DNA from: Escherichia phage KarinMuster_Bas82
DNA length: 58,508 nucleotides
Sequence record: PQ850612.1
Direction: 5' to 3' (one strand)
Positions 8,410 through 53,375 of the stretch are shown piece by piece. The notes beneath the pieces are model-generated. The model worked only from the letters and a program-made list of their open reading frames with translations, had not been told where the DNA came from and did not search any database. The position numbers and the translations under genes were made by a program. Position 1 is the stretch's first letter, and each line of letters opens with the position of its first letter.

Positions 8410-8735
8410 AAATACGACCCCACAATTGCTGCACAGTTGACGATCGCTAAACGCGTTGCTTTTTCACGGTCTTCTCCGTGGCTAACTGGTTGCTTATAAT
8501 TAACGCCGGTGTCAGGGTTATTAACCGTCACTTCGTTGTCACGAACATCCAGATCCATGTACATGTTAACCATCAGACTGAAAGCATCCTCATTACGTGT
8601 AAGAGGGTTCCACAGGCGACCATTACCTATATCAATACCTTCGTTTATGTAACGTTCGTCGTACGCGACGTAATATTTACCCTGGATTTCAGCAGCCTTT
8701 GCTGCGTTAACTAATAAATCACGATTGTTCATCAC
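8406..8735 (-). CDS. hypothetical protein
   Basis: 109-aa ORF, overlapping stop/start. Confidence 0.5.
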   Translation of the reverse strand: MMNNRDLLVNAAKAAEIQGKYYVAYDERYINEGIDIGNGRLWNPLTRNEDAFSLMVNMYMDLDVRDNEVTVNNPDTGVNYKQPVSHGEDREKATRLAIVNCAAIVGSYL

Positions 8736-9235
8736 ACCCGTCCTGTTGATCCAAACCCGCCATTACGCTGACTATCAACATCTGGTAATTCTTCCACTTC
8801 AACCAGATTAACAGGTTCGACACGTTCAACCATGAGCTGACAAACGCGTTCACCGTCTGCGATAGTCTGTAATTTCTGCCCGTGGTTAGTCAGCGTAACG
8901 TAGTATTCTTCTTTATAATCACGATCACCGATACCCACACAGTTGATCAGTGACAAACCGTGTTTAAGACTCATGCCGGAACGTGGATAAAATTTAATGC
9001 AATATCCGTTATCAACTGACATTTTCAGACCAGTGGGGATCATAGCGCGGTCGCCGGGCCATAATGCGATTGTTCCTGCAACAACCGGACGTTCTACTTT
9101 AGCGCCTGATTCTGTGAATATGGTTACCGATTCTTCCCATAGGCAAGCACGAACGTCTAATCCGGCGCTGTCTGGTGTTGCACGTGTCGGAAGTTCAGCG
9201 TGGGGTGTTAGTTTTTTGATATACAGGTTAGTCAT
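8732..9235 (-). CDS. dut: dUTP diphosphatase
   Basis: 167 aa; dUTPase motifs AGLDVRA, PRSGMSLKHGL, GIGDRDYKEE, RNGGFGSTG. Confidence 0.9.
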   Translation of the reverse strand: MTNLYIKKLTPHAELPTRATPDSAGLDVRACLWEESVTIFTESGAKVERPVVAGTIALWPGDRAMIPTGLKMSVDNGYCIKFYPRSGMSLKHGLSLINCVGIGDRDYKEEYYVTLTNHGQKLQTIADGERVCQLMVERVEPVNLVEVEELPDVDSQRNGGFGSTGRV

Positions 9236-9430: not shown

Positions 9431-9474
9431 TGTTAGTGTTACTGCTTGCAATGTGTCAAGAATTATTTTAAAAT
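9431..9474. promoter_or_regulatory. divergent promoter pair built on the conserved element
   Basis: leftward -35 TTGACA with -10 CTAACA; rightward -35 TTGCAA (9446-9451), 17-bp spacer, -10 TAAAAT. Confidence 0.55.
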
Positions 9475-9502
9475 TCTGTCAACGTTAACCAATGAGGAAC
9501 GA

Positions 9503-10243
9503 ATGATGTTTGAACATCCGTGGAATATACCTGCATATGATGCTGAAAGTGAAAAACAATCACTTGACTATCGAATGAAAACACAACAATTAGACTGGAG
9601 TGAAGCGCCAGACTGGGCTACATGTGTTGTTCTTAATAAGACAACAAACACTTTTGCATGGTCTGACGGTTCAATGTACGCACCAATTTTAAGAAATCCA
9701 CCACAAATTATGGAGAATGCTGATGACTTTGAAATCTTTGAAAAACGCTCTTGTGGTCCAGCAACACCTGTCAAAACAAAACTGTTAATGACACCGAAAG
9801 CCCGTGGTAACACTTATGAAGAATTCATCGCAACCGGGTGGAACGACGACCAGTTAGTCGAACATGGTTATGCTATTCGTACTAATGATAAACCACCATT
9901 TGAACAACAGTCATTAGCAGACTTACACTTGGCGCATCTATTCACACCTGTTCAACAACCATCAACAGCGTCTGACTTACTGAAACAGGCTGAACAGCTA
10001 CTGACAGAACGTGGTAAGCAGTATGACACGTCTGGTCAGGAACGTTCGTCAGCTAAAATCGTTGCTGCGTTTAACACAATTACCGGGCGTGACTTAACAC
10101 CAGGTGAAGGGTGGTTATTCCTGATGCTGTTAAAAGCGGTTCGTTTTTATTCCAATACTGAAACACCATATCGTGACAGTCTGGAAGACCTGATCAGCTA
10201 CGCTGCATTACACGCAGAGGAATATCTTAACAATGAACGGTGA
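9503..10243 (+). CDS. hypothetical protein carrying TYEEFIATGWNDDQL motif
   Basis: start re-assigned to MMFEHPW with SD GAGGAA; motif shared with the DUF2815-like protein. Confidence 0.55.
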   Translation: MMFEHPWNIPAYDAESEKQSLDYRMKTQQLDWSEAPDWATCVVLNKTTNTFAWSDGSMYAPILRNPPQIMENADDFEIFEKRSCGPATPVKTKLLMTPKARGNTYEEFIATGWNDDQLVEHGYAIRTNDKPPFEQQSLADLHLAHLFTPVQQPSTASDLLKQAEQLLTERGKQYDTSGQERSSAKIVAAFNTITGRDLTPGEGWLFLMLLKAVRFYSNTETPYRDSLEDLISYAALHAEEYLNNER

Positions 10244-13446: not shown

Positions 13447-13557
13447 TACAGCTAATACAGAACGTGTACTAACTGTACATGGTTTTACATAGGTTTCATG
13501 ATTTTGAGTTGCGGCTAATACTGAATCTGTATTAGTAGATCATAGATTCATAGATCG

Positions 13558-13660
13558 CGTCATGTTTATTTTTAACCGACCATTCTCTATCTTATTCTTT
13601 TTATTATCTTTTTATAGATAACATAGAAAACATAGATAAACAGAAGAGTAGTATAAGTAG
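13558..13660. repeat. AT-rich ~100-bp repeat, copy A
   Basis: about 90% identical to 53274-53375; shared core CTCTATCTTATTCTTTTTATTATCTTTTTATAGATAACATAGAAAACATAGATA. Confidence 0.8.
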
Positions 13661-13730
13661 TAAAAGTTGCTGCAAGTAGGAGAGGTTTAAAAGGTATAGG
13701 GAGTCGCATACTTCCCATGAATCTATACAT

Positions 13731-13799: not shown

Positions 13800-14147
13800 A
13801 TGGATCCGAACATCAGAGTTGCTACAGACGAATTCATTCGTCGCGCCCGTAAAATTCATGGTGATCGTTACGACTACTCATTCAGCATTGTTGAAGATAG
13901 TTCCAGCACCGTGGTTATTATTGACCGTGAAACTAACACAGTGTTTTTCCAGGTTGTCGCTGAACATCTGGACGGTGTTGAACCAGTAACGACTGCTGTT
14001 GAACCAGTAACGACTGCTGTTGAACCGATCAATAATCTTTCTGAGACATTCTGTAACGTTGTAAACAGCGTGTATCACCAGTGCAATTATTCATCTGAAA
14101 TGTTAGAATTTAGTCATGTTGAAACAATACGAGGACAATCCCCGTGA
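13800..14147 (+). CDS. hypothetical protein with T5orf172-repeat-like motif
   Basis: start moved to ATG at 13800 (SD AAGGG); EFIRRARKIHGDRYDYS resembles repeats of the 22440-23354 protein. Confidence 0.45.
   Translation: MDPNIRVATDEFIRRARKIHGDRYDYSFSIVEDSSSTVVIIDRETNTVFFQVVAEHLDGVEPVTTAVEPVTTAVEPINNLSETFCNVVNSVYHQCNYSSEMLEFSHVETIRGQSP
13978..14031 (+). repeat. 21-bp in-frame tandem duplication
   Basis: GTTGAACCAGTAACGACTGCT x2 plus partial third copy. Confidence 0.7.
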
Positions 14148-36013: not shown

Positions 36014-37870
36014 TTACCGAAGTGGTGCAACGAGTTTTTCAGCTTCTTTGATGTAAAAATCATAATTGAGCGTTGCCCGGTTAAAACGTTTCATGTCGTT
36101 GCACTCAGTGGTCAACCAACCTTTACACACTGACATGCGGCGTTCAGGCGCATCAGGGTTCAGTTTCAGTGATTTTGCCAGCGGTGGCATGACTTTTGTC
36201 AACGGTGCACCATCTGTACTGACGTAATAACGGGTAATGTTTTGAACCTGTTTATCACCCCATAGTAATTTGCTGTTACGCGGTACTTTCGTCACCAACA
36301 TAAAATCGTGAATGTCTTCGTGTGATGTTATAAAATCACGAATGTCTTTATTGTGTACCAGTGCTGCTTCAGCCGCTTTTGCGACAACCTGCATGCTGTG
36401 GTTTTGATGCCAACCCAGATCAACGCTGTGACAATAAGCGCCTTTACGTTTAACTTTCTTACCGCCTTCATAAACAGCGATGTAATTATTTACATCGCGG
36501 ATAAACATCACGTCATAAATCGCTTCTTCAAGCTGGAGTTTAGTTAATTTTTCCCACGCGTGACGAACCTGTTCTACTTGTCCGGTAAATACTCGTGGTA
36601 CGTAAACTGTAAGACCATCTGTGTTAGCCTGGATCATGGATAAACCAGGGATTTTCAGAAGTTCTTCAGCCAACATGCACAAAAGTAACTGTCCGTTAAT
36701 CGTAATAGCCATTGTATAAGCAGGATCGTAGAATGGGCTGTATACGTTATTACTGTCACCATACACACCGTTTAACGCCAGTTTTAACATTGCGTTTTCT
36801 GGTGTACCTTTCGGGTAACTGGAACGCATGTCATAAACATTTTTATAAATGGTGCAAAATTGTTTACCCAGATGTGCCGGATAAAGTTCATTACTGATCG
36901 CAAGGTTCGGGTAAAAACTGGCAACGTCCAGATCGATGATCACATAATTTTCAGTGGATCTTATAGTTTGAGATTCAATAGACCCGTGGATACCACCCGT
37001 ACCAAAATCAAACGAGAACCCGTTAATGTCTGCACTTAAATCTGTAAATACACCTTTTGTTTCAGTGATGACCTGCTGACGTAACCAGTTAAGAACACGA
37101 TTAAATTCAGGCTGTTCAAAACGGACATAAGGGAAAATCACGCTGTTTAATGCGATTGATAGTCTGTGCGTCTGTCGTGGTTTTCTACTACCCGGTTCGA
37201 AACATTGAATACCTGATTTTTCAAGTTCCATGATGAAATAGTCTTTACCGATTTTCGTGTCATTATGGTTCATGAAATTACGACCGTATTTAGCAGAAAG
37301 TTCACGACGAAAATCGATCAGCTTTTTACTGTGTTTATAAAACATCAAAGTCGCTTTTAAATCGTGTATCAGATATTGACGAAGCGTATCAATTTGAGAA
37401 TCGGTTAAGTAAGTCCCTGGCGTAAATGGGAGGTCTTCAATGTTTTCCATTCTCATATTGAATTCAAGTGTTTTCAGACTTGTTCGTTTTGCCTGATTGT
37501 CGAAATGATGAATTTTATACAAATCAAGCTGGGGGACTATCCAGTCTTTTTCCCACACCATATGAGCAAAACGATTTTCATCACCGGCGTTAATTATCGA
37601 ATCGCCTTTTTTGTAAATGTCTGCGTTGGTGATATACATGATGTTGTTCAAAATAGAATGCTGAACAGGATAGTCGTAACCCAGATTGTTATAACCAACT
37701 TCTTCAGCACGATGTTCACGCAAATATTCCGTGAAGAAGTAAAAAGCCTGACGATCATCGCGACGATGTGAAATCTCAAAAATATAAGGCGTTTCAGTTA
37801 ACGCGTGAATAGCACCGAACAGGAAAACATTAGGATAGTTTTCAATATCATGAACGTAAGCATCTAACAT
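36014..37870 (-). CDS. DNA polymerase, compact family-B-like
   Basis: 618 aa; Exo I-like VHDIEN, motif A-like DLDVASFYPNL, motif B-like KLALNGVYG, motif C-like ANTDG. Confidence 0.65.
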   Translation of the reverse strand: MLDAYVHDIENYPNVFLFGAIHALTETPYIFEISHRRDDRQAFYFFTEYLREHRAEEVGYNNLGYDYPVQHSILNNIMYITNADIYKKGDSIINAGDENRFAHMVWEKDWIVPQLDLYKIHHFDNQAKRTSLKTLEFNMRMENIEDLPFTPGTYLTDSQIDTLRQYLIHDLKATLMFYKHSKKLIDFRRELSAKYGRNFMNHNDTKIGKDYFIMELEKSGIQCFEPGSRKPRQTHRLSIALNSVIFPYVRFEQPEFNRVLNWLRQQVITETKGVFTDLSADINGFSFDFGTGGIHGSIESQTIRSTENYVIIDLDVASFYPNLAISNELYPAHLGKQFCTIYKNVYDMRSSYPKGTPENAMLKLALNGVYGDSNNVYSPFYDPAYTMAITINGQLLLCMLAEELLKIPGLSMIQANTDGLTVYVPRVFTGQVEQVRHAWEKLTKLQLEEAIYDVMFIRDVNNYIAVYEGGKKVKRKGAYCHSVDLGWHQNHSMQVVAKAAEAALVHNKDIRDFITSHEDIHDFMLVTKVPRNSKLLWGDKQVQNITRYYVSTDGAPLTKVMPPLAKSLKLNPDAPERRMSVCKGWLTTECNDMKRFNRATLNYDFYIKEAEKLVAPLR

Positions 37871-37950
37871 AATAAAATCCTGATAAGTAAATGGGGCACT
37901 ATGGCCCCATGTCTGTTTAAAGCGGTATGTTGTCCCAGTTCCAGTAACTA

Positions 37951-38997
37951 TCAGTAACCGTTACCGTTGAGAAAATTCGGGGCCGGAGTAGTCATTACCA
38001 TATAACCGTTAGCGATCAGTTGTTCATCGTTCCAACCTTGCGAGATAAACTGTTCATAAGTAGCACCACCTGCTTTTTCAGTCATTACCTTCACAGGTGC
38101 TGCCGCTGGTGTAGGCGCTGCTACAGGTGCTGCCGCTGGTGTAGGCGCTGCTACAGGTGCTGCCGCTGGTGTAGGCGCTGCTACAGGTGCTGCCGCTGGT
38201 GTAGGCGCTGCTACAGGTGCTGCCGCTGGTGTAGGCGCTGCTACAGGTGCTGCCGCTGGTGTAGGCGCTGCTACAGGTGCTGCCGCTGGTGTAGGCGCTG
38301 CTACAGGTGCTGCCGCTGGTGTAGGCGCTGCTACAGGTGCTGCCGCTGGTGTAGGCGCTGCTACAGGTGCTGCCGCTGGTGTTACGCCGATCGGACGTGC
38401 ACCTTCAGGCATTGCAGGAGCCGCACCGAACACAGAGGCAGGAGCCGGACCGGAAATGATTTCTTCACCTGCATAAAGCAATTGTGCCATTTCCATGTTG
38501 ATATATACGCCAGCCTGATTACCTGTACGACCGTTTGCAACAGATGATCCGCTGATACGGTAGTAATAACCTTTTTTCGCCAGATTTTTATCAATAACTG
38601 GCTGGTACGCTGCGTTATAAACCGGACACGCGTCAATAGCCACGTTGCGTGAGAAACCAATTACCCAGTGACCAGCATAACCAGTTTTACTCGCATGTTT
38701 CGGATCATCACCGTTAATAATTTTCCATGCGAAAGTAGGTTGTTGTGGTTCGCCGTTCACATAGTGTGAGTTCGCCGCTCGCATAATCGCCTGGAATACC
38801 GCACCCAGTTCACCTTGTTCTTCCCACCAGTTCGCCGCTGTTTTAGGAAACGCCAGACCAACCCACCAGTTGTGTTTTTCAGGTGCTAACGGTTTATTTT
38901 CGTGGTCATGAGTGTTGATATCGAAAAAAGAACCGCCAACCAGACGACCAACCGGAGTTACAAAAGATTCTTTCTGTGCCATGTTATTAACCTTCAT
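37951..38997 (-). CDS. DUF2815-like protein with (PAAAPVAAPT)n linker
   Basis: 348 aa; alternative start MAQKESF at 38982; nine perfect decapeptide repeats; C-terminal TYEQFISQGWNDEQL. Confidence 0.55.
   Translation of the reverse strand: MKVNNMAQKESFVTPVGRLVGGSFFDINTHDHENKPLAPEKHNWWVGLAFPKTAANWWEEQGELGAVFQAIMRAANSHYVNGEPQQPTFAWKIINGDDPKHASKTGYAGHWVIGFSRNVAIDACPVYNAAYQPVIDKNLAKKGYYYRISGSSVANGRTGNQAGVYINMEMAQLLYAGEEIISGPAPASVFGAAPAMPEGARPIGVTPAAAPVAAPTPAAAPVAAPTPAAAPVAAPTPAAAPVAAPTPAAAPVAAPTPAAAPVAAPTPAAAPVAAPTPAAAPVAAPTPAAAPVAAPTPAAAPVKVMTEKAGGATYEQFISQGWNDEQLIANGYMVMTTPAPNFLNGNGY
38089..38382 (-). repeat. 30-bp perfect tandem repeat, 9 full copies plus partial ends
   Basis: identical 30-mers TGCCGCTGGTGTAGGCGCTGCTACAGGTGC, in-frame. 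Confidence 0.9.
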
Positions 38998-40143
38998 TTA
39001 AAGTGGACGTGCGCCAGTCGGCATCGTCACGGGTTTATTAAAAACAGATTCTGCCAGTGTGCTGTGACCTTTACGCGGGTCACTGTCAGGTACTAAAACT
39101 GGCTGACCTTCTGGTTTTGTCGTACACATGTCAACAAGTGCCGGAGGCAGTGATTTTTCCAGTGTTGACAACGGTTTTAATTTACGTTCGTACAATGTTT
39201 CAGGGTTTACACCAAACATGGGTGCAGCACCGATCAGTTTTCCTTCGTCCGTAAGCTGACGTCGGGTTTGCTTTGTTGCAAGTTTAAAACCCGGTAAAGC
39301 CTTACCCATGCGAACAAAATGTAACCCCTGAGTATGTAACGCTGTTTTTGCTTCAGAAGAACGTGTATACAATTCTTCAAGAAGTGCCAGACGACGCGCT
39401 ACTTCTTCTGGCGTAAGTGATGGTGGTGCATCAAGAACAGTAGCCAATTCTAAAACCCTCTCATACATCGCCGGACACATACCACGCGCCGGACAGTAAT
39501 GACAATGACTACCAACATTTAACGGTGCGTCTGGTTTATGTGCTTCGTTAAACCCGTGTTTAAATCGTTCAGCCCATTCCATCAATGTTGCCCGGTTAAA
39601 CTCCCATCGTCTTACAGGTCCGAGTGGGTGATAAGCCCGTGGCTGAACAATTGTGAACACAACACGCTTAACGGTGTCGATGCAACGTTGGTCCAGTGCG
39701 TAATAGACCCCCTGTGAGTTATCAACTGCTTCAACTGCGACATGACCGTATTTATAATCCCATACGTAAAGCGTATCAGTATTAAAGTCATACCAGCAAT
39801 AATCACAGGTTCCATACTGACCGGGTAACAACCAGTCAATGTAAATGCGAACTTCTGAAAACAGCGGATCGAGTTTCGCACCAACTGAAAGAACATCTGT
39901 TATAAAGTCATCCGCGTAAACATGCATGTCTTCAGTAACCTGAACACCGTTAGGAGCAAGACACGGCATTAATGGCGGTTTGCCTTTAATCTTCTGTTCT
40001 AACACCCAGTGTCCGGCTGTACCTTCTTCAGCACTGGGTGATGATGGTTCTACATAATCAATCCGCTGTGACAGTTGAACGCTACCCGGACAAGCTAACC
40101 AACGTTTTGATCCACTGGCACTAAAGGTAGCGTGACTGGTCAT
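38998..40143 (-). CDS. PD-(D/E)XK exonuclease, Cas4/DUF2800-like
   Basis: 381 aa; N-terminal SGSKRWLACPGS and C-terminal Cys cluster CHYCPARGMCPA. Confidence 0.6.
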   Translation of the reverse strand: MTSHATFSASGSKRWLACPGSVQLSQRIDYVEPSSPSAEEGTAGHWVLEQKIKGKPPLMPCLAPNGVQVTEDMHVYADDFITDVLSVGAKLDPLFSEVRIYIDWLLPGQYGTCDYCWYDFNTDTLYVWDYKYGHVAVEAVDNSQGVYYALDQRCIDTVKRVVFTIVQPRAYHPLGPVRRWEFNRATLMEWAERFKHGFNEAHKPDAPLNVGSHCHYCPARGMCPAMYERVLELATVLDAPPSLTPEEVARRLALLEELYTRSSEAKTALHTQGLHFVRMGKALPGFKLATKQTRRQLTDEGKLIGAAPMFGVNPETLYERKLKPLSTLEKSLPPALVDMCTTKPEGQPVLVPDSDPRKGHSTLAESVFNKPVTMPTGARPL

Positions 40144-40913
40144 CAGAATGCCCCACCCATTTGTTTAACAGATTCAGCCTGACCAACAATGTTTTCAGCA
40201 TCAGCCGGGGCCGCGTTAATGCGTTCAATCAGTTCGATGATAGATTTCAGTTTTACTGGGTCGTCAATCTGCATCACGTTCTGAGTTTCATACAGTCCCA
40301 TGATTCGCTGACTTAATGGCGCAGCACGGTCACCCGTAATTTGTCCAAACATCTGCATCAGTGCTGACTGAAGAACCTGTGTGTTATAAACTTTAGCCGG
40401 ATCCGTGGTTACAGGTTGCTCGACAGGCGCGACTGGTGCAGCCGGTGCTGCTGGTACAACTGGAGCTACCGGAGCGGCAGGAACCGCTGGAGCAGGATCA
40501 ACAGGTGCTACATAACCCGGTGCAAGTTCTGCAGGTCCGGTATAACGCCCTGCTTCAACTGCTTCAGCAATAAGTTCACGTTTAACACCGTCAACAAACG
40601 CTTCATCCAGTTTTTTCTTTTGACGCCACAGACCATCACCTTTGTTCAGGGATTTACTGTCAGTGTGGATACGTGGATCGTGGCGCAAACCCCATTTGTC
40701 GAACTCTTCAGTGCTGGTTTCGTTATCGTCAACATCTTCAGTTGGTGCAGATACAACAGGCAGTGATTCAGCAACGACAGTCACGGTTTCTTTAGTGATA
40801 CCATCACCCTGAGCAGTCATGAGTGGTGCAGCACCAGTCGCAATCGCTGCTGCCAGATTGTTGATCGCAGTTTCCAGACCCGGAGCAGTTACAAGTAATT
40901 TAACTTCGAACAT
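40143..40913 (-). CDS. hypothetical protein with Pro/Ala/Val-rich linker
   Basis: 256 aa, SD GAGGAA, first gene after tandem promoters. Confidence 0.5.
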   Translation of the reverse strand: MFEVKLLVTAPGLETAINNLAAAIATGAAPLMTAQGDGITKETVTVVAESLPVVSAPTEDVDDNETSTEEFDKWGLRHDPRIHTDSKSLNKGDGLWRQKKKLDEAFVDGVKRELIAEAVEAGRYTGPAELAPGYVAPVDPAPAVPAAPVAPVVPAAPAAPVAPVEQPVTTDPAKVYNTQVLQSALMQMFGQITGDRAAPLSQRIMGLYETQNVMQIDDPVKLKSIIELIERINAAPADAENIVGQAESVKQMGGAF

Positions 40914-52251: not shown

Positions 52252-52278
52252 GCGGGGTAATCATCCCCGCTATCTTTA
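52252..52278. terminator. bidirectional terminator
   Basis: GCGGGG-taatcat-CCCCGC with T-rich flanks. Confidence 0.6.
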
Positions 52279-53031
52279 TTGACCCATCATATCTTTATAC
52301 ATCATCAAAACAACATCATCCGGCATATTGTCTACATCACAATGTGGGTTGTGTGATAACGCATACAGTCTGATTTTCTCCTTCAAATCGCTGACATCGA
52401 CTACAGGTGCTTCCACTCGTGCTACAGGTGCTTCCACTCGTGCTACAGGTGGTTCCACTCGTGCTACAGGTGGTTCACAAACCATCACGTTAAACGGTGT
52501 ACCGGTGCCTTCGTATTTTTCAAGCAAATCGACCATTACGTTTACACATTCCGGGATCCATCCCCGGCGCAAACCATTCTGAATCCAACTGTCAGTAATT
52601 GTGTGTTCGTTTAAATTCCTGCGTAGCACATATCTTGCACATTCAAAATTACCGCACATCGCCTCAAACCGTGTCCACACGTCGTGACCGTGAACAGCTT
52701 CCAGGATCTGTGAATCAACGTATCTGACACGTTGCCAGTAGTTATTAGCAAAACGCCTGTGCGGTAATTTCTGACGGAGTTCGGTAACCGGTATTGTGTG
52801 TTTAAGAACAATGTTTTCGTCAGAATATTGTACTGGCAAGGGTGACAGTGTGAAGTCAGTAATCTCTTCAAGAATAATACTGATCGTTTCATATTTAGGA
52901 TGAAACCTACCGCTTAACCATTGGTTGTAACGACCAACAGTTACCTTAACACCTCGACGATTAAGGTATTCAACAGCATTTTGTACCCCGCCTTTTAAAT
53001 CTATCAATTCGTCTAAAAGGTTCTTTTTCAT
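52276..53031 (-). CDS. hypothetical protein with (E)PPVARV repeats
   Basis: start at MKKNLLDEL with SD AAGGGTG; four 21-bp in-frame repeats. Confidence 0.5.
   Translation of the reverse strand: MKKNLLDELIDLKGGVQNAVEYLNRRGVKVTVGRYNQWLSGRFHPKYETISIILEEITDFTLSPLPVQYSDENIVLKHTIPVTELRQKLPHRRFANNYWQRVRYVDSQILEAVHGHDVWTRFEAMCGNFECARYVLRRNLNEHTITDSWIQNGLRRGWIPECVNVMVDLLEKYEGTGTPFNVMVCEPPVARVEPPVARVEAPVARVEAPVVDVSDLKEKIRLYALSHNPHCDVDNMPDDVVLMMYKDMMGQ
52401..52500 (-). repeat. 21-bp tandem repeat x4 plus partial
   Basis: CTACAGGTGCTTCCACTCGTG x2 then CTACAGGTGGTTCCACTCGTG x2. Confidence 0.8.
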
Positions 53032-53069
53032 TATCACACCCTTCTTGTTTGACCACGGGTAAATCATAA

Positions 53070-53260: not shown

Positions 53261-53273
53261 AACATAGATTTCG

Positions 53274-53375
53274 TCATGTTTATTTTTTAACCAACCTCTC
53301 TCTATCTTATTCTTTTTATTATCTTTTTATAGATAACATAGAAAACATAGATACAAAGAAGAAGTAGTATAGAAA
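53274..53375. repeat. AT-rich ~100-bp repeat, copy B
   Basis: near-identical to 13558-13660. Confidence 0.8.

What the first reader, a model, noticed from the sequence alone, without database searches (positions are those of the whole stretch)
38089..38382. Nine perfect 30-bp tandem repeats encoding a (PAAAPVAAPT)n linker
The repeats are identical at the nucleotide level, which implies recent expansion by slippage or selection for length variation. They form a flexible Pro/Ala linker between the N-terminal DUF2815-like domain and a short conserved C-terminal peptide. Two other leftward genes carry unrelated in-frame repeats (21-bp repeats at 52401-52500; an APAVPAAPVAPV tract in the 40143-40913 gene), and the 30-bp and 21-bp units share the 13-mer TGCTACAGGTGCT.
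Basis: seen in the sequence. Interest (0 to 1): 0.5.

Follow-up and report, generated by a model that had tools for sequence, protein, structure and literature searches.

The report
Variable Pro/Ala tether in phage SSB
A perfect 30-bp tandem repeat in a 9NA-like phage encodes a floppy proline/alanine tether of rapidly changing length, joining the phage's single-stranded-DNA-binding protein to a small, so far undescribed C-terminal domain; the repeat is an ordinary kind of feature, the domain is the more interesting part.

Summary
Tandem Repeats Finder gives 38093-38382, period 30, 9.7 copies, 100% identity, in frame on the minus strand, encoding (TPAAAPVAAP)n. The gene (37951-38982) is the T7 gp2.5 / Enc34-type SSB of a Sashavirus, inside the known DUF2800 exonuclease - gp2.5 - DNA polymerase module.

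The array is a hypervariable in-frame VNTR. Twelve related phages keep a constant 199-200 aa OB core and a constant 47 aa C-terminus, but their linkers run from 21 to 97 aa. Sasha, Sergei and Solent have no differences in 741 nt of flanks yet carry 5.7, 3.7 and 2.7 copies.

AlphaFold predicts a disordered linker and a confident beta-alpha-alpha-beta mini-domain after it, not a "short peptide". That mini-domain has no Pfam, NCBIfam or PDB match. It occurs in 187 protein clusters on several unrelated N-terminal domains, and a second time in this window (9788-9874).

The best reading is a length-tolerant tether carrying a partner-binding module in place of the usual acidic SSB tail. The exact copy number here is unverified, because several public assemblies break at this array. 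The repeat is already annotated in GenBank for Sasha and Sergei.

The parts
38093..38382 (-). 30-bp tandem array, 9.7 perfect copies (VNTR), in frame
   Evidence: TRF; unit-by-unit listing
37951..38982 (-). gp2.5/Enc34-type SSB gene (343 aa, start MAQKES as annotated in relatives, stop at 37951-37953)
38386..38982 (-). N-terminal OB-fold ssDNA-binding core (aa 1-199)
   Evidence: PF10991 27.8 bits; AlphaFold pLDDT above 90; Foldseek hits to 4JG2, 4KLK, 1JE5, 5ODJ at E 7e-9 to 1e-7
38095..38385 (-). Pro/Ala linker (aa 200-296, 97 aa, uncharged), predicted disordered
   Evidence: pLDDT 40-51 for residues 201-290; 21-97 aa in orthologues
37990..38094 (-). C-terminal beta-alpha-alpha-beta mini-domain (aa 297-331, VKVMTEKAGGATYEQFISQGWNDEQLIANGYMVMT)
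   Evidence: pLDDT 90-96; 187 representative proteins at E<=1e-3; no Pfam, NCBIfam or PDB match
37954..37989 (-). C-terminal tail TPAPNFLNGNGY, containing the motif PAPNFL and a terminal Tyr; low confidence in the model
   Evidence: P.P.[FI][LATV] found in the tails of 75 of 117 family members
37891..37910 (-). terminator-like hairpin downstream of the SSB gene
   Evidence: terminator annotated at the same place in Sasha, Sergei and AVIO78A
38998..40143 (-). DUF2800 PD-(D/E)XK exonuclease, upstream partner in the duf2800-gp2.5-polA module
   Evidence: Pfam 5.3e-58; module described in PMC8093625
36014..37870 (-). DNA polymerase, downstream member of the module
   Evidence: phrog_1252 1.8e-214
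9788..9874 (+). second copy of the mini-domain, inside the DUF6378 protein encoded at 9446-10243
   Evidence: hmmsearch of the six-frame translation, E 4e-17; DUF6378 28.8 bits; 9NA orthologue found by Foldseek
52401..52476 (-). second in-frame VNTR (21 bp x 3.6) in gene 52276-53067
   Evidence: 13.6 copies in Sasha

Best explanation
The array encodes the intrinsically disordered, uncharged Pro/Ala tether of the phage's T7-type single-stranded-DNA-binding/annealing protein. The tether joins the OB-fold core to a small folded C-terminal module. That module, together with the terminal PAPNFL...Y tail, takes the place of the acidic tail that T7 gp2.5 and Enc34 ORF6 use to contact replisome partners (inferred). 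Because the tether is encoded by perfect 30-bp repeats, replication slippage or single-strand annealing between units adds and removes whole 10-aa units without breaking the frame (inferred). The result is a VNTR that changes faster than point substitutions accumulate (shown). Function appears to tolerate a nearly five-fold range of tether length, as in bacterial SSBs. Length variation is therefore most likely near-neutral drift within a permitted window rather than a switch (inferred).
For: Shown: the perfect array. Shown: the N (199-200 aa) and C (47 aa) parts are constant while the linker is 21-97 aa in 12 phages. Further complete alleles of 261-333 aa occur in public assemblies, mostly in 10-aa steps. 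Shown: Sasha, Sergei and Solent have 0 differences in 741 flank nt but 5.7, 3.7 and 2.7 copies. Shown: AVIO78A has the same total of 9.7 copies, with a G->A variant in 6 units in the pattern A A T T T A T T T, consistent with block duplication. Shown: 9NA, sequenced by Sanger with 660-nt reads, has 7 perfect copies of a different 30-bp unit. Shown: SSB identity by Pfam, PHROG and fold and by the duf2800-gp2.5-polA context. Shown: disorder of the linker and a confident mini-domain. Family-wide, 95 of 120 homologues have OB core + Pro/Ala-rich low-complexity linker + the same module (a rough regex parse of 66 of them gives 8-271 aa and a median P+A fraction of 0.53). Many linkers show different internal repeats of 5, 7, 9, 10, 12 or 17 aa, so tandem duplication builds these linkers repeatedly. 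Analogy from the literature: bacterial SSB linkers span 16-126 aa with few charged residues, and partner affinity is largely insensitive to linker length (PMC7145534). T7-type SSBs use the C-terminal tail for partner contacts (PMC5686142; PMC13402713).
Against: No experiment shows what the mini-domain binds, or that it binds anything. The mechanism of expansion is inferred from the structure of the array, not observed. The copy number in this window (a 290-nt array) cannot be verified from the sequence alone, and this locus breaks short-read assemblies. The 30-nt unit is identical in Klebsiella phage phi_KPN_H2, although only 58% of codons for shared residues match in the N-terminal domain (62% in the C-terminal 47 aa; naive p about 0.004). 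That could point to lateral exchange or to a nucleotide-level constraint that a purely neutral tether model does not predict.
Confidence: 0.7

Rival explanations
1. The copy number in this window, or the perfect identity of the units, is an assembly artefact: a short-read assembler collapsed or expanded an unresolvable repeat.
For: The 290-nt array is longer than typical short reads. IMG/VR contig 3300045988_029198 (58,013 bp) starts and ends inside the array. SP069 and FSL SP-062 are split exactly at it (H16-H21), and the VLCpiS10a and KP13-27 records end at it. Many NCBI entries are 'DUF2815 family protein, partial' on 55-58 kb contigs.
Against: The array as such is certainly real. Sanger-sequenced 9NA has 7 perfect units. 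AVIO78A reaches the same 9.7 copies with internal variant units that anchor an assembly. The short arrays of 81-171 nt in Sasha, Sergei and Solent could be spanned by single reads if those were about 250 nt (read lengths were not checked), and they still differ.
Confidence: 0.15
2. Length variation is adaptive: a contingency-type locus in which tether length is under diversifying or fluctuating selection, for example to match host or replisome geometry or to evade a host defence.
For: A second in-frame VNTR in the same genomes also varies widely, 3.6 copies here against 13.6 in Sasha. Very fast turnover. The unit is conserved at the nucleotide level across diverged phages.
Against: There is no correlation with host genus: E. 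coli phages have 21, 23, 41, 85, 97 and 97 aa, and Salmonella phages 27, 37 and 57 aa. All changes are in frame, so there is no on/off switching. Retron-Eco8 senses the OB fold of T7 gp2.5, and deleting the C-tail does not alter activation (PMC13402713). In E. coli SSB, partner affinity is insensitive to linker length.
Confidence: 0.15
3. The repeats act at the DNA level as iterons of a replication origin, a packaging signal, or Chi-like RecBCD modulators embedded in a coding region, as the lambda ori iterons are embedded in gene O.
For: Direct repeats lie inside the replication module. The 30-nt unit is identical in a phage whose flanks are about 80% identical. Each unit contains GCTGGTGT, which is 7 of 8 bases of Chi.
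Against: Copy number ranges from 1.7 to 9.7 among close relatives. The 9NA unit differs in sequence but keeps the Pro/Ala coding. Across the wider family the linker is Pro/Ala-rich whatever its DNA sequence. The unit is 67% GC with no AT-rich flank. There is no GC-skew turning point at 38 kb. True Chi sites are not enriched, 2 found against 1.1 expected, and the 9NA unit has no Chi-like octamer.
Confidence: 0.04

Closest known systems
T7 gp2.5 and Enterobacter phage Enc34 ORF6 (T7-type SSBs, Pfam PF10991/DUF2815)
   Same: Same OB-fold variant by sequence and predicted structure. Same gene neighbourhood, DUF2800 exonuclease - SSB - DNA polymerase. The protein ends in an aromatic residue, as gp2.5 does (own knowledge: gp2.5 ends in Phe).
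   Different: Those proteins carry a short, strongly acidic, unstructured C-terminal tail: 16 of the last 29 residues in Enc34 ORF6 are acidic. Here the tail is a 97-aa uncharged Pro/Ala repeat followed by a folded ~35-aa mini-domain, and the last 47 aa have a net charge of only about -2.
E. coli-type bacterial SSB: OB domain - intrinsically disordered linker - acidic tip
   Same: Tripartite logic of DNA-binding core, low-complexity uncharged Pro-rich tether and C-terminal interaction element. Linker length varies widely between species (16-126 aa) with little effect on partner affinity (PMC7145534).
   Different: A different OB family, monomer/dimer type rather than homotetramer (own knowledge). 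The linker is Ala/Pro/Val/Thr-rich rather than Gly/Gln/Pro-rich. The tip is a folded domain rather than DDDIPF, although a few homologues do end in DDIPF after a related-looking helical segment that the module HMM did not detect (P0100, P0111). Length here varies within one viral genus, through a perfect DNA repeat.
Ala/Pro-rich inter-domain linkers of 2-oxo-acid dehydrogenase E2 chains (own knowledge, not tested here)
   Same: The composition (Ala, Pro, Val, Thr) and the presumed role as an extended, flexible swinging-arm tether between folded domains.
   Different: Those linkers are about 20-30 aa, are not encoded by perfect tandem DNA repeats, and are not length-polymorphic among strains to this degree.
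In-frame VNTRs in bacterial and phage coding regions
   Same: The unit is a multiple of 3, the units are homogenised, and copy number is polymorphic among near-identical genomes. The Sasha and Sergei GenBank records already annotate this as a 'direct tandem repeat region'.
   Different: It sits in a core replication protein rather than a surface or host-interaction protein, and it gives no frameshift-based switching.

Membership tests
T7-type SSB (Pfam PF10991 Enc34_ssDNA-bd / DUF2815; gp2.5-like) | Sequence match to the family profile above the curated cutoff | tested here: met
   The N-terminal 199 aa score 27.8 bits against a gathering score of 26, E 2.4e-6. The full-length protein gave no hit; I attribute that to the low-complexity repeat, but did not test this. 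phrog_7011 matches at 2.8e-80.
T7-type SSB (Pfam PF10991 Enc34_ssDNA-bd / DUF2815; gp2.5-like) | OB-fold variant resembling the solved gp2.5 and Enc34 ORF6 structures | tested here: met
   The AlphaFold model has pLDDT above 90 over residues 1-190. Foldseek finds 4JG2 at 7e-9, 4KLK at 3e-8, 1JE5 at 9e-8 and 5ODJ at 1e-7, with target TM-scores of 0.6-0.74.
T7-type SSB (Pfam PF10991 Enc34_ssDNA-bd / DUF2815; gp2.5-like) | Long acidic unstructured C-terminal tail | tested here: not met
   The linker has no charged residues. The last 47 aa contain 2 Lys and 4 Asp/Glu, and AlphaFold predicts a folded beta-alpha-alpha-beta unit there. The definition of the tail comes from PMC5686142.
T7-type SSB (Pfam PF10991 Enc34_ssDNA-bd / DUF2815; gp2.5-like) | duf2800 - gp2.5 - polA gene module | tested here: met
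   DUF2800 at 38998-40143 (5.3e-58), the SSB at 37951-38982 and the polymerase at 36014-37870 are all leftward. The module is described in PMC8093625.
T7-type SSB (Pfam PF10991 Enc34_ssDNA-bd / DUF2815; gp2.5-like) | ssDNA binding and strand annealing activity | not testable with these tools
   Requires biochemistry.
In-frame VNTR | Homogeneous tandem units whose length is a multiple of 3 | tested here: met
   30 bp, 9.7 copies, 100% identity.
In-frame VNTR | Copy-number polymorphism among close relatives | tested here: met
   1.7 to 9.7 copies in phages 97-98% identical over this region. Zero flank differences with 2.7, 3.7 and 5.7 copies.
Phase-variable contingency locus | Repeat changes switch expression on and off by frameshift or promoter spacing | tested here: not met
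   All observed alleles keep the reading frame and both flanking domains.
Iteron-type replication origin | Stable set of repeats next to an AT-rich unwinding region, conserved as DNA | tested here: not met
   Copy number is unstable. The unit is 67% GC. 9NA has a different unit. No skew inflection. Binding by an initiator protein is not testable here.
HeH/SAP-like or any other solved small-domain fold, for the C-terminal mini-domain | Structural match to a solved representative | tested here: not met

The most novel reading that the evidence does not exclude
The ~33-aa 'MT.KA.GATYEQFI..GWTDEQLI..GYM' beta-alpha-alpha-beta unit is an undescribed, mobile phage domain. It may serve as a common docking tag, either by binding one hub protein or by self-association. 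In that reading it gathers the SSB, exonuclease-type, DUF669-type and nucleotide-metabolism (DUF6378) proteins at the replication/recombination site, and Pro/Ala VNTR tethers set its reach. This window carries the tag on two proteins, the SSB and the DUF6378 protein next to the dUTPase gene.
Probability: 0.3. Interest if true: 0.65.

Novelty: new variant of a known kind. Interest (0 to 1): 0.4.

Why it matters
The repeat itself is a textbook in-frame VNTR, and GenBank already flags it in two relatives. It matters for practical reasons. It breaks or misleads short-read assemblies of this phage group. It also offers a natural series of SSB tether lengths, from 21 to 97 aa, in otherwise near-identical phages, which could be used to test how tether length affects a viral replisome. 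The larger point is that a whole branch of T7-type SSBs has replaced the canonical acidic tail with a Pro/Ala tether plus a small folded domain that is absent from Pfam, NCBIfam and the PDB. That domain recurs on other phage DNA-metabolism proteins. Identifying its partner would show how these phages organise replication and recombination.

Tried and rejected
(1) Chi-like function. Each unit has GCTGGTGT, 7 of 8 bases of Chi, but true Chi sites are not enriched (2 found against 1.1 expected) and the 9NA unit lacks the octamer.

(2) Origin or iterons. Rejected on unstable copy number, GC richness and the absence of a skew signal.

(3) Defence evasion through the tail. Retron-Eco8 recognises the OB fold and not the C-tail.

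(5) The AFDB50 fold library was not available.

(7) Literature. The 9NA genome note and the Sergei paper do not mention the repeat. Searches on DUF6378 and on DUF2815+DUF2800 gave no description of the mini-domain.

(8) Common origin of the 30-bp and 21-bp units via the shared 13-mer. It occurs in only one unit of the 21-bp array, and the probability from codon usage is about 0.008. This is too weak to claim.

(9) The neighbour protein (40143-40913) shares a ~50-aa 'W..D.RIH...W.KKK' segment with one module-bearing protein (P0169, pairwise E 2e-6) but not detectably with another (P0263). I treat it only as a hint.

Full report
OBSERVATION. The sequence at 38093-38382 is a perfect tandem array: period 30, 9.7 copies, 100% identity, no indels, TRF score 580. 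It lies in frame in a leftward gene. I place that gene at 37951-38982 (343 aa, start MAQKES...), following the annotated starts and ribosome-binding sites of close relatives. Read on the coding strand, it is a 21-nt partial unit plus nine identical units, GTAGCAGCGCCTACACCAGCGGCAGCACCT, giving VTPAAAP(VAAPTPAAAP)9. Otherwise the description is correct.

WHAT THE GENE IS. The window is a Sashavirus, a 9NA-like siphovirus. The region is 97-98% identical to Salmonella phages Sasha, Sergei and Solent and to Escherichia phages AVIO78A, PDP46 and PJ16. It is 81-83% identical over the same 1.6-kb query to Klebsiella phages phi_KPN_H2 and Carvaje; for 9NA megablast aligned only part of the polymerase gene (80% over 18% of the query), and the SSB N-domain is 78% identical.

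The full-length protein gives no Pfam hit, which I attribute to the repeat. The first 199 aa alone pass the curated cutoff of PF10991 (Enc34_ssDNA-bd, formerly DUF2815) with 27.8 bits against 26. They also match phrog_7011, 'Gp2.5-like ssDNA binding and annealing protein', at 2.8e-80.

An AlphaFold model built on 70 homologues has pLDDT above 90 for residues 1-190. Its best matches among solved structures are exactly the four known T7-type SSBs: 4JG2, 4KLK, T7 gp2.5 (1JE5) and Enc34 ORF6 (5ODJ/K/L), at E 7e-9 to 2e-6.

The neighbours are a DUF2800 PD-(D/E)XK exonuclease (38998-40143) and a DNA polymerase (36014-37870). This is the duf2800-gp2.5-polA module described in PMC8093625. A terminator-like hairpin follows the SSB gene at 37891-37910.

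THE ARRAY IS A FAST VNTR. In twelve sequenced relatives the N-terminal part (199-200 aa) and the C-terminal part (47 aa) have constant length, but the linker varies:
- 97 aa: the window and AVIO78A
- 85 aa: PDP46
- 69 aa: 9NA
- 65 aa: Carvaje
- 59 aa: phi_KPN_H2
- 57 aa: Sasha
- 41 aa: PJ16
- 37 aa: Sergei
- 27 aa: Solent
- 23 aa: BDX09P1
- 21 aa: 536P12

Further complete alleles in public assemblies are 261-333 aa long, mostly in 10-aa steps. Among the cluster members listed, the 263-aa form (about 1.7 copies) is seen on the most contigs. The window's exact protein is not in a 15-billion-protein collection.

Sasha, Sergei and Solent have no differences at all in the 741 nt of SSB coding sequence flanking the array, yet carry 5.7, 3.7 and 2.7 copies. 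Copy number therefore changes much faster than point substitutions accumulate. AVIO78A has the same total as the window, but six units carry a G->A change (Ala->Thr) in the order A A T T T A T T T, which suggests duplication of a multi-unit block. 9NA has seven perfect copies of a different 30-bp unit (VATPAPVAAP). It was Sanger-sequenced with 660-nt reads, so long perfect arrays at this position are genuine.

CAVEAT ON COPY NUMBER. This locus defeats short-read assembly. An IMG/VR contig of 58,013 bp begins and ends inside the array. SP069 and FSL SP-062 are split at it (H16-H21). The VLCpiS10a and KP13-27 records end at it. Many NCBI entries are 'partial' SSBs on genome-length contigs. The window's figure of 9.7 copies across a 290-nt array cannot be checked from the sequence.

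WHAT THE REPEAT ENCODES. The linker has no charged residues and is predicted disordered, with pLDDT 40-51 for residues 201-290. Behind it lies more than a short peptide. Residues 297-331 form a confidently predicted beta-alpha-alpha-beta unit, with pLDDT 90-96 both in the full-length model and when modelled alone. It is followed by a low-confidence tail, TPAPNFLNGNGY.

Published T7-type SSBs instead have a strongly acidic unstructured tail that contacts polymerase and helicase (PMC5686142; PMC13402713). The 47 C-terminal residues here have a net charge of only about -2.

FAMILY VIEW. Among 120 homologues, 95 have the same layout: OB core, a Pro/Ala-rich low-complexity linker and the same module, usually at the very C-terminus. 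A rough regex parse of 66 of them puts the linker at about 8-271 aa with a median P+A fraction of 0.53. Many linkers contain their own repeats of other lengths, for example QQQAPVT x5, ATPAA x5-6, a 17-aa unit x4 and APAPPAPAF x4. Tandem duplication is therefore the usual way these tethers are built, and the window shows an unusually fresh example. A short motif, P.P.[FI][LATV] (PAPNFL here), occurs in the tails of 75 of 117 members.

THE MINI-DOMAIN IS PROMISCUOUS AND UNDESCRIBED.
- An exhaustive phmmer search with the 47 aa found 187 representative proteins at E<=1e-3, often with 2-5 copies per protein.
- Only 50 of the 149 newly listed hits carry the same OB core.
- A Pfam scan of 119 of them gives Enc34_ssDNA-bd (34), DUF669 (9), DUF2800 (1), DUF6378 (1) and others.
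- Some of these proteins end in E. coli-SSB-like DDLPF or GDIPF tips.
- The module has no hit in Pfam or NCBIfam.
- The window itself holds a second copy at 9788-9874, inside a DUF6378 protein (9446-10243) next to the dUTPase gene. It was found by a six-frame HMM search at E 4e-17, with nothing else below E=1. The 9NA orthologue was found independently by Foldseek.

MECHANISM.
- Shown: the array, its in-frame hypervariability, the SSB identity of the protein, the predicted disorder of the linker, and the conserved folded module.
- Inferred: units are gained and lost by slippage or by annealing between direct repeats. The phage's own annealing protein and exonuclease may promote this.
- Inferred: the Pro/Ala segment acts as a flexible spacer, and the module (with or without the PAPNFL...Y tail) replaces the acidic tail as the partner-binding element.
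- Inferred: length is only loosely constrained. Bacterial SSB linkers offer a precedent: they span 16-126 aa, and partner affinity is largely independent of linker length (PMC7145534).

RIVALS.
- An assembly artefact affecting the exact copy number remains possible (about 0.15).
- Adaptive tuning of length is not excluded (about 0.15). However, length does not track host genus, and the one known SSB-sensing defence reads the OB fold and not the tail.
- A DNA-level role as origin iterons, a pac signal or Chi-like sites is unlikely (about 0.04). Copy number is unstable, 9NA has a different unit, the unit is 67% GC, the skew profile is flat here, and Chi is not enriched.
- One observation does not fit the simple neutral picture. 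phi_KPN_H2 carries four units identical in all 30 nt to the window's, although only 58% of codons for shared residues match in the N-terminal domain and 62% in the C-terminal 47 aa. Lateral exchange of the linker is the simplest guess, but I did not test it.

The 21-bp array (52401-52476, gene 52276-53067) is also a VNTR: 3.6 copies here against 13.6 copies at 99% identity in Sasha, with gene length 770-1001 nt among relatives. The P/A/V tract of the 40143-40913 gene varies only slightly, 744-771 nt. The 13-mer is shared with a single unit of the 21-bp array. Given A-P-V-A in both arrays, identical codons have a probability of about 0.008. That is suggestive at most.

VERDICT. The repeat is an ordinary kind of feature, and the Sasha and Sergei GenBank records already mark it as a 'direct tandem repeat region'. 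The added value lies in three results: the evidence for very fast copy-number turnover, the assembly warning, and the recognition that the tether carries an uncharacterised, widely distributed phage mini-domain in place of the canonical acidic SSB tail.

Noticed in passing
window 9446-10243 (+), module at 9788-9874: A second copy of the SSB's C-terminal mini-domain (LLMTPKARGNTYEEFIATGWNDDQLVEHGYAI) sits in the middle of a DUF6378 protein next to the dUTPase gene (8732-9235). The 9NA orthologue has it too.
   Followed up: partly
window 52401-52476 (gene 52276-53067, -); L018 226-511: The 21-bp in-frame repeat (EPPVARV/EAPVARV) is a second VNTR: 3.6 copies here and 13.6 copies at 99% identity in Sasha. 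Gene length is 770-1001 nt among relatives, and the repeat is annotated as a tandem repeat region in Sasha and Sergei.
   Followed up: yes
window 38095-38385 vs L009 (Klebsiella phage phi_KPN_H2): The 30-nt unit is identical in phi_KPN_H2 (4 units) and differs by 1 nt in Carvaje. Yet the N-domain is only 80.6% identical at the nucleotide level and only 58% of codons for shared residues match there (62% in the C-terminal 47 aa; naive p about 0.004). Lateral exchange or nucleotide-level constraint is possible; unexplained.
   Followed up: partly
window 13545-13665 and 53265-53375: A dispersed AT-rich element of about 100 bp, nearly identical at the two loci (…CGTCATGTTTATTTTTAACC…TATCTTTTTATAGATAACATAGAAAACATAGATA…), contains 9-bp ATAGAWAAC-type tandem units. 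The exact 9-mer occurs 4 times in the window against 0.6 expected. It may be a repeated regulatory region.
   Followed up: partly
window 40143-40913 (-): The gene upstream of the exonuclease has a P/A/V tract and a segment, EFDKWGLRHDPRIHTDSKSLNKGDGLWRQKKK, that resembles a module-bearing protein from another phage (P0169, pairwise E 2e-6). No similarity was detected to a second such protein (P0263).
   Followed up: partly
window 37954-37989 (-) and homologues P0001-P0120: A short motif, P.P.[FI][LATV] (PAPNFL, PNPAFL, PAPGFL, PAPDFL), recurs in the tails of 75 of 117 family members, before or after the mini-domain. It could be a second linear interaction motif.
   Followed up: partly
window 13976-14026: Another perfect tandem repeat: 21 bp x 2.4 copies, 100% identity.
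   Followed up: no
GenBank KC139649/KC139650 (SP069), KC139632/KC139634 (FSL SP-062), ON602746, OP617744; IMG/VR 3300045988_029198: Public assemblies of related phages are split at the SSB array or have their ends in it. Their SSB genes are therefore truncated or annotated as partial.
   Followed up: yes
window 38020-38547 (+): A 175-aa antisense ORF (CCRWCRRCYR repeats) runs through the array. It looks like a mechanical by-product of the repeat rather than a gene.
   Followed up: no
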